A stretch of DNA of 64,000 nt from Escherichia coli (GTDB taxonomy: Bacteria > Pseudomonadota > Gammaproteobacteria > Enterobacterales > Enterobacteriaceae): assembly GCF_030013595.1 (NCBI RefSeq), contig NZ_CP122768.1; one strand, written 5' to 3'. The position numbers were made by a program. How positions within the stretch are numbered: the first letter of the stretch is position 1; each line of letters starts with the position of its first letter. Shown here piece by piece: positions 39,001 through 42,000 of the stretch.

Positions 39001-42000
39001 CTCCCCAGGCGTTGGCAGATTCTTTAATGCAGCTGGCGCGACAAATTTCCCGACTCGAAAGCGGGCAGTTAGCGCAACGCAATTAATGTGAGTCAGCTCA
39101 CTCATTAGGCACCCCAGGCTTTACACTTTATGCGTCCGGCTCGTATGTTGTGTGAAATTGTGAGCGGATAACAATTTCACACAGGATACAGCTATGACTA
39201 TAATTACGGATTCACTGGCCGTCGTATTACAACGTCGTGACTGGGAAAACCCTGGCGTTACCCAACTTAATCGCCTTGCGGCACATCCCCCTTTCGCCAG
39301 CTGGCGTAATAGCGAAGAGGCCCGCACCGATCGCCCTTCCCAACAGTTGCGCAGCCTGAATGGCGAATGGCGCTTTGCCTGGTTTCCGGCACCAGAAGCG
39401 GTGCCGGAAAGCTGGCTGGAGTGCGATCTTCCTGAGGCCGATACTGTCGTCGTCCCCTCAAACTGGCAGATGCACGGTTACGATGCGCCTATCTACACCA
39501 ACGTGACCTATCCCATTACGGTCAATCCGCCATTTGTTCCCGCGGACAATCCGACGGGTTGTTACTCGCTCACATTTAATATTGATGAATGCTGGCTACA
39601 GGAAGGCCAGACGCGAATTATTTTTGATGGTGTTAACTCGGCGTTTCATTTGTGGTGCAACGGGCGCTGGGTCGGTTACGGACAGGACAGCCGTTTGCCG
39701 TCTGAATTTGACCTGAACGCATTTTTACGCGCCGGAGAAAACCGCCTCTCGGTGATGGTGTTGCGCTGGAGTGACGGCAGTTATCTGGAAGATCAGGATA
39801 TGTGGCGGATGAGCGGCATTTTCCGTGACGTCTCGTTGCTGCACAAACCGACCACACAAATCAGCGATTTCCATGTTGCCACTCGCTTTAATGATGATTT
39901 CAGCCGCGCGGTACTGGAGGCAGAAGTTCAGATGTGCGGCGAACTGCGCGATGAGCTGCGGGTGACGGTTTCTTTGTGGCAGGGTGAAACGCAGGTCGCC
40001 AGCGGCACCACGCCTTTCGGCGGTGAAATTATCGATGAGCGTGGTGGTTATGCCGATCGCGTCACGCTACGTCTGAACGTCGAAAACCCGGCGCTGTGGA
40101 GCGCCGAAATCCCGAATCTCTATCGTGCGGTGGTTGAACTGCACACCGCCGACGGCACGCTGATTGAAGCAGAAGCCTGCGATGTCGGTTTCCGCGAAGT
40201 GCGGATTGAAAATGGTCTGCTGCTGCTGAACGGCAAGCCGTTGCTGATTCGCGGCGTTAACCGTCACGAGCATCATCCTCTGCATGGTCAGGTCATGGAT
40301 GAGCAGACGATGGTGCAGGATATCCTGCTGATGAAGCAGAACAACTTTAACGCCGTGCGCTGTTCGCATTATCCGAACCATCCGCTGTGGTACACGCTGT
40401 GTGACCGCTACGGCCTGTATGTGGTGGATGAAGCCAATATTGAAACCCACGGCATGGTGCCAATGAATCGTCTGACCGATGATCCGCGCTGGCTACCCGC
40501 GATGAGCGAACGCGTAACGCGAATGGTGCAGCGCGATCGTAATCATCCGAGTGTGATCATCTGGTCGCTGGGGAATGAATCAGGCCACGGCGCTAATCAC
40601 GACGCGCTGTATCGCTGGATCAAATCTGTCGATCCTTCCCGCCCGGTGCAGTATGAAGGCGGCGGAGCCGACACAACGGCCACCGATATTATTTGCCCGA
40701 TGTACGCGCGCGTGGATGAAGACCAGCCCTTCCCGGCTGTGCCGAAATGGTCCATCAAAAAATGGCTTTCGCTGCCTGGAGAACTGCGCCCGCTGATCCT
40801 TTGCGAATATGCCCACGCGATGGGTAACAGTCTTGGCGGCTTCGCTAAATACTGGCAGGCATTTCGTCAGTACCCCCGTTTACAGGGCGGCTTCGTCTGG
40901 GACTGGGTGGATCAGTCGCTGATTAAATATGATGAAAACGGCAACCCGTGGTCAGCTTACGGCGGTGATTTTGGCGATACGCCAAACGATCGCCAGTTCT
41001 GCATGAACGGTCTGGTCTTTGCCGACCGCACGCCGCATCCGGCGCTGACGGAAGCAAAACACCAGCAGCAGTTTTTCCAGTTCCGTTTATCCGGGCGAAC
41101 CATCGAAGTGACCAGCGAATACCTGTTCCGTCATAGCGATAACGAGCTCCTGCACTGGTCGGTGGCGTTGGATGGCAAGCCGCTGGCAAGCGGTGAAATG
41201 CCTCTGGATGTTGCTCCACAAGATAAACAGTTGATTGAACTGCCTGAACTACCGCAGCCGGAGAGCGCCGGACAACTCTGGCTTACGGTACACGTAGTGC
41301 AACCGAACGCGACCGCATGGTCAGAAGCCGGACACATCAGCGCCTGGCAGCAGTGGCGTCTGGCGGAAAACCTCAGCGTGACACTCCCCTCCGCGCCCCA
41401 CGCCATCCCGCATCTGACCACCAGCGAAACGGATTTTTGCATCGAGCTGGGTAATAAGCGTTGGCAATTTAACCGCCAGTCAGGCTTTCTTTCACAGATG
41501 TGGATTGGCGATGAAAAACAACTGCTGACGCCGCTGCGCGATCAGTTCACCCGTGCATCGCTGGATAACGACATTGGCGTAAGTGAAGCGACCCGCATTG
41601 ACCCTAACGCCTGGGTCGAACGCTGGAAGGCGGCGGGCCATTACCAGGCCGAAGCAGCGTTGTTGCAGTGCACGGCAGATACACTTGCCGACGCGGTGCT
41701 GATTACGACCGCTCACGCGTGGCAGCATCAGGGGAAAACCTTATTTATCAGCCGGAAAACCTACCGGATTGATGGTAGTGGTCAAATGGCGATTACCGTT
41801 GATGTTGAAGTAGCGAGCGATACACCGCATCCGGCACGGATTGGCCTGACCTGCCAGCTGGCGCAAGTCGCAGAGCGGGTAAACTGGCTCGGATTAGGGC
41901 CGCAAGAAAACTATCCCGACCGCCTTACTGCCGCCTGTTTTGACCGCTGGGATCTGCCATTGTCAGACATGTATACCCCGTACGTCTTCCCGAGCGAAAA

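What the first reader, a model, noticed from the sequence alone, without database searches (positions are those of the whole stretch)
39064..39202. lacI stop-codon change extends LacI by 5 residues, alters O3, and sits alongside further lac promoter variants
The sequence reads GGCAGTTAGCGCAACGCAATTAA where I recall K-12 having GGCAGTGAGCGC (TGA stop inside O3). The G-to-T change removes the stop, so LacI ends ...ESGQLAQRN, and it changes the GTGAGC core of O3. Nearby, the CAP site is TGTGAGTCAGCTCACT, the spacer reads GCGTCC, the O1 5' flank is GAAATTG, and lacZ begins MTII. The K-12 comparisons are from memory and were not verified.
Basis: partly seen in the sequence, partly recalled or inferred. 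Interest (0 to 1): 0.4.

Follow-up and report, generated by a model that had tools for sequence, protein, structure and literature searches.

The report
Rare lacI stop-loss SNP weakening O3
One base change in the E. coli lac control region removes the lac repressor's stop codon, adding five amino acids, and also damages the weak upstream operator O3; it is real but confined to one clone and probably has only a small effect.

Summary
Aligned to K-12 MG1655, window base 39070 is T where K-12 has G. This turns the lacI stop TGA into TTA, so LacI ends ...ESGQLAQRN (365 aa instead of 360). It also changes position 7 of operator O3 (GTGAGC to GTTAGC).

The T allele is rare. It occurs in 2 of 5,426 complete E. 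coli genomes, both pig isolates of one clone. The G allele occurs in 5,321. The exact 365-aa protein is nevertheless on 105 contigs in public assemblies, and the four draft loci compared are nearly identical, so it is a real allele of one clone and not a sequencing error.

The accompanying variants are ordinary lineage polymorphisms. The CAP-site C is in 47% of genomes. The changes at -22 and -1 alter predicted RNA polymerase binding by 0.02 kT. The M3I haplotype is in 98 genomes.

A published LacI energy matrix puts the cost of the O3 change at +3.8 to +7 kBT, a 44-fold or greater loss of affinity, so O3 is probably near-dead. O1, O2 and lacZYA are intact. A published autoregulation model predicts about 3-fold more LacI and roughly unchanged repression. 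The tail is probably harmless, but that is inferred.

Overall this is a minor natural allele of a textbook system, of low interest.

The parts
37989..39086 (+). lacI coding sequence: GTG start, 365 codons plus TAA. It differs from K-12 LacI by D132N, T141A, A331P, R340Q and V353I, and by the 5-residue C-terminal extension LAQRN.
   Evidence: PGAP annotates the identical gene as 1,098 nt, WP_074398049.1; Pfam LacI HTH and periplasmic-binding-like core.
39069..39071 (+). Former stop codon, now TTA (Leu361). The stop-loss SNP is the T at 39070, which is -86 relative to the lacP1 start and position 7 of O3.
   Evidence: The T allele is in 2 of 5,426 complete genomes.
39084..39086 (+). New lacI stop codon TAA. 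It starts on the last base of O3 and covers the first three bases of the 22-bp CAP site.
39064..39084 (+). Auxiliary operator O3, variant GGCAGTtAGCGCAACGCAATT. It matches K-12 O3 at 20 of 21 bases and its centre is 92 bp upstream of the O1 centre.
   Evidence: Energy-matrix prediction: +3.79 kBT (O1 matrix) or +6.97 kBT (O3 matrix).
39087..39102 (+). CAP (CRP) site core TGTGAGTcAGCTCACT. The C at 39094 (-62) lies in the central spacer, where K-12 has T.
   Evidence: The C allele is in 2,547 of 5,426 genomes. Razo-Mejia et al. (bioRxiv 10.1101/003772) report a highly conserved natural CRP-site mutation predicted to cost less than 1 kBT; the text read did not give its position.
39120..39149 (+). 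lacP1 promoter: TTTACA, 18-bp spacer, TATGTT. The spacer carries G at 39134 (-22), where K-12 has T.
   Evidence: Predicted RNAP binding is -5.33 kT against -5.35 kT for K-12.
39155..39155 (+). A at -1, immediately 5' of O1, where K-12 has G.
   Evidence: A is present in 11 of 15 sampled sequences.
39156..39176 (+). Primary operator O1, AATTGTGAGCGGATAACAATT, identical to K-12.
39183..39187 (+). lacZ Shine-Dalgarno AGGA followed by T at 39187 (+32), where K-12 has A.
39194..42268 (+). lacZ, intact at 1,024 aa. Codon 2 is ACT (synonymous) and codon 3 is ATA (M3I).
   Evidence: The M3I haplotype 38-mer is in 98 of 5,426 genomes.
39176..39204 (+). Promoter-like site TTCACA, 17-bp spacer, TATAAT. 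It is produced by the ACT and ATA codon variants. The predicted start, near 39210, lies downstream of the lacZ ATG.
   Evidence: 11 of 12 consensus matches. One search gives about -5.8 kT, but about 350 sites in the window score as well as lacP1, so function is unproven.
39557..39577 (-). Auxiliary operator O2, an exact match to the K-12 sequence, 401 bp downstream of the O1 centre.
42320..43573 (+). lacY, intact at 417 aa.
43639..44250 (+). lacA, intact at 203 aa counted from the K-12-equivalent start.

Best explanation
This is a real, derived, clone-specific point mutation (G to T at 39070) in an otherwise intact E. coli lac operon. O3 overlaps the last codons of lacI, so the one base has two effects. 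(1) The lacI stop TGA becomes TTA, and translation continues for five codons to the next in-frame TAA, giving LacI-365 with a polar tail LAQRN after the tetramerisation helix. (2) The invariant G in the GTGAGC half-site of O3 is replaced, which is predicted to lower LacI affinity for O3 at least 44-fold. That would largely remove the O1-O3 loop and the O3 roadblock that limits lacI expression. Inferred outcome: LacI rises about 3-fold in uninduced cells and repression depends on O1 plus the O1-O2 loop. Net lac repression is then unchanged, or at most about 3-fold weaker. The tail itself is probably harmless. The allele is most likely neutral or nearly neutral and spread with its clone. The other differences from K-12 (CAP -62 C, -22 G, -1 A, +32 T, lacZ ACT/ATA) are ordinary lineage haplotype variants with negligible predicted effect. 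What is shown: the sequence change, its rarity, its clonal distribution, and the intactness of the rest of the operon. What is inferred: the loss of O3 binding, the rise in LacI, the neutrality of the tail, and the small net phenotype.
For: Rarity: the T allele is in 2 genomes and the G allele in 4,285 + 1,036, which accounts for 5,323 of the 5,339 genomes that carry the region. It is not an error. The exact 365-aa protein is on 105 contigs under several NCBI accessions, RefSeq WP_074398049.1 and UniProt A0A2S8JSU5. Four draft assemblies differ from the window by 0-2 SNPs in 7.1 kb. It is derived. The 360-aa parent allele is on 916 contigs, and the lacI DNA of strain MEI003 is identical to the window except at 39070. 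O3 effect: the Barnes et al. 2019 energy matrices give +3.79 kBT (O1 matrix) and +6.97 kBT (O3 matrix) for G to T at this position. The whole-site prediction falls from -7.8 to -4.0 kBT, and the site's rank in the window drops from third to 17th of about 128,000 21-mers. O1 and O2 are exact and lacZYA is intact. Autoregulation: Semsey et al. 2013 (PMC3711431) describe the O3 roadblock of lacI transcription and a 3-fold lower LacI level when it operates. Their model with the weakened O3 gives LacI rising from 30 to 86-90 nM, with repression of about 1,300-fold under autoregulation and 435-454-fold at fixed LacI. Tail tolerance: a full-length LacI-GFP fusion made at the 3' end of chromosomal lacI still binds operator arrays (PMC3242509). 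From my own knowledge, C-terminal LacI-peptide and LacI-beta-galactosidase fusions also bind operator. Promoter variants: predicted RNAP energy is -5.33 against -5.35 kT.
Against: No binding or expression measurement exists for this allele. The energy matrices were inferred for a single operator acting by simple repression, and the O3-based matrix is noisy. O3 works through looping from O1, so a weakened site might keep some function. The constant repression is a built-in property of a simplified model. The tail follows directly on the four-helix-bundle tetramerisation helix (residues 339-360, PMC5983854), and no tool here could test tetramer stability. The allele's presence on 105 contigs shows only that it is tolerated, not that it is neutral.
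Confidence: 0.75

Rival explanations
1. The allele is an adaptive regulatory change. Losing O3 and LacI autoregulation (constitutively higher LacI, altered induction threshold or lag) was selected in the niche of this livestock-associated clone.
For: The allele persists on 105 contigs from several assemblies. G at this position is otherwise almost invariant in 5,321 genomes, so the site is not freely drifting. Semsey et al. argue that the LacI level trades response speed against cost. Razo-Mejia et al. note that O3 mutations can raise or lower repression.
Against: There is a single origin in one low-diversity clone (0-2 SNPs per 7.1 kb in the four draft loci compared). No independent recurrence was found in 5,426 complete genomes. 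The predicted net change in repression is small. Hitchhiking with a clone explains the same data.
Confidence: 0.1
2. The main effect is on the protein. The LAQRN tail disturbs the C-terminal four-helix bundle or LacI stability, giving a partly dimeric or less abundant repressor. All looping is then lost and lac expression becomes leaky.
For: The extension is appended directly to the tetramerisation helix (residues 339-360). The lineage also carries R340Q and V353I within that helix.
Against: R340Q and V353I occur in a 360-aa allele found on at least 1,000 contigs, so they are tolerated. The tail follows Ser-Gly-Gln and ends in polar residues, so it should be a flexible, non-destabilising end (inference from general knowledge of C-terminal degradation signals). 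Much larger C-terminal fusions still bind operators.
Confidence: 0.08
3. The T is a sequencing or assembly error.
For: It is a single-base difference from thousands of genomes.
Against: The same base is present in two complete genomes and in at least four independent draft assemblies. The exact protein is on 105 contigs and has had its own RefSeq and UniProt entries for years.
Confidence: 0.01
4. The change is functionally silent. O3 is weak enough, and looping forgiving enough, that neither O3 occupancy nor LacI level changes measurably.
For: Destroying O3 alone has only a modest effect when O2 is present (about 435-454-fold against 1,300-fold at fixed LacI). My recollection of Oehler et al. 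1990, which I could not read here, is consistent with that.
Against: Position 7 is one of the high-cost positions in both energy matrices, and the G is conserved in 5,321 of 5,323 accounted genomes.
Confidence: 0.06

Closest known systems
E. coli K-12 lac control region (lacI 3' end, O3, CAP site, lacP1, O1, lacZ start)
   Same: The gene order mhpR-lacI-lacZYA is the same. O1 and O2 are identical. The O3-O1 (92 bp) and O1-O2 (401 bp) spacings are the same. The -35 and -10 hexamers and the CAP half-sites TGTGA/TCACT are the same.
   Different: O3 position 7 is T instead of G, which also removes the lacI stop. In the 301-bp alignment, thirteen further single-base differences in the intergenic region and the adjoining ends of lacI and lacZ belong to the lineage haplotype.
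Engineered O3-destroyed lac constructs (Oehler, Mueller-Hill and colleagues) and models of LacI autoregulation by the O3 roadblock (Abo et al. 2000; Semsey et al. 2013, PMC3711431)
   Same: The expected mechanism is the same: loss of the O1-O3 loop and of roadblock and SsrA-mediated limitation of LacI.
   Different: Here the lesion is a natural single SNP that also lengthens the repressor, and no measurements exist. Oehler 1990 and Abo 2000 could not be read with these tools.
B2-type natural O3 allele (GGCAGTGAGCGCAACaCAATT)
   Same: It is also a natural single-base O3 polymorphism inside the lacI 3' end.
   Different: It is common (1,036 genomes), keeps the stop codon, and is predicted to strengthen O3 by about 1.4 kBT. 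The window allele is rare and predicted to weaken O3.
C-terminal LacI fusions (chromosomal LacI-GFP, PMC3242509; peptides-on-plasmids and LacI-beta-galactosidase fusions, recalled from memory)
   Same: Extra residues after Gln360 are compatible with operator binding.
   Different: Those are engineered and large, and tetramer function was not always retained or tested. Here the addition is a natural 5-residue tail.

Membership tests
LacI (lac repressor; LacI/GalR family) | N-terminal LacI-type helix-turn-helix domain plus a periplasmic-binding-protein-like core | tested here: met
   Precomputed Pfam hits PF00356, PF13407, PF00532 and PF13377 on the exact protein. It matches K-12 LacI at 355 of 360 positions.
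LacI (lac repressor; LacI/GalR family) | C-terminal tetramerisation helix (residues 339-360) ending at Gln360 | tested here: inconclusive
   The helix sequence is present with R340Q and V353I, but the protein continues for 5 more residues. The oligomeric state could not be tested.
lac auxiliary operator O3 | Position: centre 92 bp upstream of the O1 centre, overlapping the last lacI codons | tested here: met
   O3 lies at 39064-39084 (centre 39074) and O1 at 39156-39176 (centre 39166).
lac auxiliary operator O3 | Conserved GTGAGC core in the left half-site, shared by O1, O2 and O3 | tested here: not met
   The window has GTTAGC. G is present in 5,321 of 5,323 accounted genomes.
lac auxiliary operator O3 | Specific LacI binding and O1-O3 loop formation | not testable with these tools
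   Only a prediction is available: +3.8 to +7 kBT, with whole-site energy about -4.0 against -7.8 kBT.
lac operon (lacZYA under lacP1, CAP and O1) | Intact lacZ, lacY and lacA; exact O1 and O2; CAP half-sites and promoter hexamers present | tested here: met
Sigma-70 promoter (the internal TTCACA-17-TATAAT site) | Near-consensus -35 and -10 hexamers at 17-bp spacing | tested here: met
   11 of 12 matches. It is one of 3 such sites in 64 kb, against 0.7 expected from shuffles.
Sigma-70 promoter (the internal TTCACA-17-TATAAT site) | Predicted RNAP binding clearly above background, and transcription initiating there | tested here: inconclusive
   Predicted energy is about -5.8 kT, but about 350 sites in the window score at least as well as lacP1. 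Initiation cannot be tested here.

The most novel reading that the evidence does not exclude
The clone carries a natural allele in which O3 and LacI autoregulation are nearly abolished and the repressor is lengthened. If this was selected rather than hitchhiked, it would be a natural test of what O3 and lacI self-limitation are for: the cost of LacI against the speed and threshold of lactose induction in the gut.
Probability: 0.1. Interest if true: 0.4.

Novelty: new variant of a known kind. Interest (0 to 1): 0.2.

Why it matters
The role of O3 and of LacI autoregulation has been argued mostly from engineered constructs and models. A circulating natural allele predicted to remove both, while leaving O1, O2 and lacZYA intact, offers a ready-made strain pair (the clone and its 360-aa parent allele) for measuring the effect in a wild background. 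The allele also shows how overlapping coding and regulatory information ties two phenotypes to one base. Beyond that it is a minor polymorphism. The same mutation can be engineered easily, and the expected phenotype is small.

Tried and rejected
1. Sequencing error was rejected: many independent assemblies carry the T.
2. The idea that the accompanying promoter and CAP variants form a co-adapted set with the stop-loss was rejected. They occur in many lineages that lack the stop-loss and change predicted RNAP binding by 0.02 kT.
3. The idea that the M3I/ACT codon changes create a strong internal promoter was followed up. By hexamer match the site is 11 of 12. By the Brewster/Kinney RNAP matrix it is only about as good as un-activated lacP1, and about 350 other sites in the window score as well. 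A transcript from it would lack the lacZ start codon. It is kept as a passing note only.
4. Oehler et al. 1990 (PMC551766) and Abo et al. 2000 (PMC313975) are not held. Their content is used only as quoted in PMC3711431 or marked as recalled from memory.
5. A search for 'peptides-on-plasmids' found nothing useful. Searches for the protein accessions, the strain names, and phrases about the lacI stop codon found no paper on this allele.
6. Five paper-tool calls failed on term format.
7. Structure prediction was not run. A monomer model cannot address tetramerisation.
8. No metagenome or GTDB scan was run. The derived, clonal status was already clear.

Full report
**1. What is in the sequence**

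The window carries the standard E. coli arrangement mhpR-lacI-lacZ-lacY-lacA on the + strand.
- lacI starts at the GTG at 37989 and ends at a TAA at 39084-39086, giving 365 residues. The ORF finder's 368 aa counts from an upstream in-frame GTG. PGAP annotates the identical gene in strain HCP5S3_I2 as 1,098 nt, protein WP_074398049.1.

**2. Comparison with K-12**

I fetched the K-12 MG1655 region and aligned it to the window.

| Window position | Location | K-12 | Window |
|---|---|---|---|
| 39070 | lacI stop, O3 position 7 (-86) | G (TGA) | T (TTA) |
| 39094 | CAP-site central spacer (-62) | T | C |
| 39134 | promoter spacer (-22) | T | G |
| 39155 | -1, next to O1 | G | A |
| 39199, 39202 | lacZ codons 2-3 | ACC ATG | ACT ATA (M3I) |

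- O1 (39156-39176) is identical to K-12.
- O2 is an exact match at 39557-39577.
- lacZ (1,024 aa), lacY (417 aa) and lacA (203 aa) are intact.
- LacI also differs from K-12 by D132N, T141A, A331P, R340Q and V353I.

**3. How common each variant is**

I used short queries in which any 28-base seed must contain the variant base.
- The T allele at 39070 is in 2 of 5,426 complete E. coli genomes. Both are pig-faeces isolates from Winchester, UK, with chromosomes of 5,270,553 and 5,270,552 bp, so they are one clone.
- The K-12-type 38-mer is in 4,285 genomes.
- A second common O3 type, with A at O3 position 16 (39079), is in 1,036 genomes. It was seen in strains THO-003, UPEC957C and O18, which I take to be phylogroup B2 without having typed them.
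- These three counts cover 5,323 of the 5,339 genomes that have the region. G at O3 position 7, which is also the lacI stop, is therefore essentially invariant.

The accompanying variants are ordinary:
- The CAP-site C is in 2,547 genomes, or 47%.
- In a 15-sequence sample spanning the identity range, G at -22 is in 13, A at -1 in 11, and T at +32 and ACT in 11. K-12 shares its CAP-site T and -22 T only with the O111:H8 strain in that sample.
- The M3I haplotype is the least common, at 98 genomes.

**4. The allele is real, derived and clonal**

- The exact 365-aa protein is on 105 contigs in the large assembly collection. It has several NCBI accessions and UniProt entry A0A2S8JSU5.
- Four draft assemblies carrying it differ from the window by 0-2 SNPs over 7.1 kb. 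One is identical. HCP5S3_I2 differs at one base (37047).
- The same protein without the tail (P0003) is on 916 contigs.
- The lacI DNA of strain MEI003 (CP071263) is identical to the window except at 39070. Its flanks differ at 58 sites in 7 kb.
- The nearest other complete genomes are about 99.1% identical or less over 8 kb.

The T is therefore a single derived mutation on a known lacI allele, in a lineage that is poorly represented among complete genomes. The locus looks like a recombination mosaic.

**5. Predicted effect on O3**

O3 keeps the GTGAGC core in its left half-site, as do O1 and O2. The SNP makes it GTTAGC.

The in vivo LacI energy matrices of Barnes et al. 2019 (PMC6375646, supplementary models) give these costs for G to T at this position:
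- +3.79 kBT on the O1-referenced matrix, a 44-fold loss of affinity.
- +6.97 kBT on the noisier O3-referenced matrix, about 1,000-fold.

With the O1 matrix, the predicted whole-site energies are:

| Site | Predicted energy (kBT) |
|---|---|
| O1 | -15.3 |
| O2 | -14.2 |
| K-12 O3 | -7.8 |
| Window O3 | -4.0 |
| B2-type O3 | -9.3 |

K-12 O3 would be the third-best LacI site in this 64-kb window. The variant ranks 17th of about 128,000 21-mers, which is among the best background sites. This is a prediction, not a measurement, and looping from O1 could rescue some occupancy.

**6. Predicted effect on regulation**

Semsey et al. 2013 (PMC3711431) summarise the established picture:
- LacI bound at O3, through the O1-O3 loop, blocks lacI transcription.
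- This yields truncated, SsrA-tagged products and holds LacI at about one-third of its unregulated level.
- They quote 1,300-fold repression for the wild type and 18-fold for O1 alone.

I put the weakened O3 into their four-state model.

| O3 | LacI at steady state | O1-O3 loop occupancy | Repression, autoregulated | Repression, LacI fixed at 30 nM |
|---|---|---|---|---|
| K-12 | 30 nM | 0.67 | about 1,300-fold | about 1,300-fold |
| Window | 86-90 nM | 0.04 or less | about 1,300-fold | 435-454-fold |

The constancy under autoregulation is a property of that simplified model. The safe statement is 'unchanged to about 3-fold weaker repression, with about 3-fold more LacI'.

**7. The protein tail**

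- Residues 339-360 form the tetramerisation helix (PMC5983854).
- The new tail LAQRN follows Ser-Gly-Gln and ends in polar residues.
- A chromosomal LacI-GFP fusion at the same end still binds operator arrays (PMC3242509).
- From my own knowledge, LacI tolerates C-terminal peptide and beta-galactosidase fusions.

I infer the tail is harmless. Tetramer stability was not testable here.

**8. The other variants**

- With the RNA polymerase energy matrix of Brewster et al. 2012 (PMC3521663), which reproduced the published values for lacUV5 and wild-type lacP1, the window's lacP1 scores -5.33 kT against -5.35 kT for K-12.
- The CAP change lies in the uncontacted central spacer.
- Razo-Mejia et al. 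(bioRxiv 10.1101/003772) surveyed 91 strains. They describe a highly conserved natural CRP-site mutation and RNAP-site mutations as costing less than 1 kBT, and they note that O3 mutations can move repression either way.
- Phillips et al. 2019 (PMC6851279) found 322 polymorphic sites in 6.3 kb of lacI-ZYA among 18 strains, with little association with regulatory phenotype.

**9. Comparison with what is known, and novelty**

Everything here is the textbook lac system. The new element is a natural allele that removes the lacI stop codon and the O3 core with the same base.
- The protein is in RefSeq and UniProt as an unremarked LacI.
- I found no paper on it.
- It functions like an engineered O3-minus construct, but it fails the sequence definition of a functional O3 because the GTGAGC core is not kept.

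I file it as a new variant of a known kind, of low interest. The expected phenotype is small, the distribution is one clone, and the mutation is trivial to engineer.

**10. Verdict**

The one correction is that the accompanying variants are common lineage polymorphisms. Interest is 0.2.

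Noticed in passing
window 39176-39204: The lacZ codon changes ACC to ACT and ATG to ATA turn K-12's CATGAT into a perfect -10 hexamer TATAAT. It lies 17 bp after TTCACA, which begins on the last base of O1, giving 11 of 12 consensus matches against 9 of 12 in K-12 and 10 of 12 in the common haplotype. The predicted start near 39210 is downstream of the lacZ ATG. An RNAP energy matrix rates the site at about -5.8 kT, no better than about 350 other sites in the window. The haplotype is in 98 complete genomes.
   Followed up: partly
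window 39079 (O3 position 16); loci L011, L012, L013: A second common natural O3 allele, GGCAGTGAGCGCAACaCAATT, is in 1,036 of 5,426 complete genomes. It was seen in strains THO-003, UPEC957C and O18, which I take to be phylogroup B2 without having typed them. It makes the right half-site AATTGT, as in O1, and is predicted to bind LacI about 1.4 kBT more tightly. In the autoregulation model that would lower LacI levels.
   Followed up: partly
L013 (NZ_CP007275.1, strain O18), equivalent to window 39167: This strain has a G-to-A change at position 12 of the primary operator O1 (AATTGTGAGCGaATAACAATT). The predicted cost is about +0.9 kBT.
   Followed up: no
L009, L012, L013, upstream of lacI (equivalent to window about 37900): In EDL933, UPEC957C and O18 the gene upstream of lacI is a GlxA-family regulator, or a remnant of one next to yaiL, instead of mhpR. 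The mhp cluster is therefore not adjacent to lacI in those lineages.
   Followed up: no
window 35000-42000 compared with L003, L019-L026: The locus looks mosaic. The lacI DNA is identical to strain MEI003 except for the stop-loss SNP, yet the flanks differ at 58 sites in 7 kb. The lacZ 5' haplotype (A at -1, ATA codon 3) matches a different clade, that of strain 7/2, whose lacI differs at several sites.
   Followed up: partly
window 37047: The window has G where HCP5S3_I2 and three of the four draft genomes of the same clone have A. The site is upstream of the annotated mhpR start. The window therefore does not come from either complete genome of the clone; it matches draft GCA_025624855.1 over the 7.1 kb compared.
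   Followed up: no
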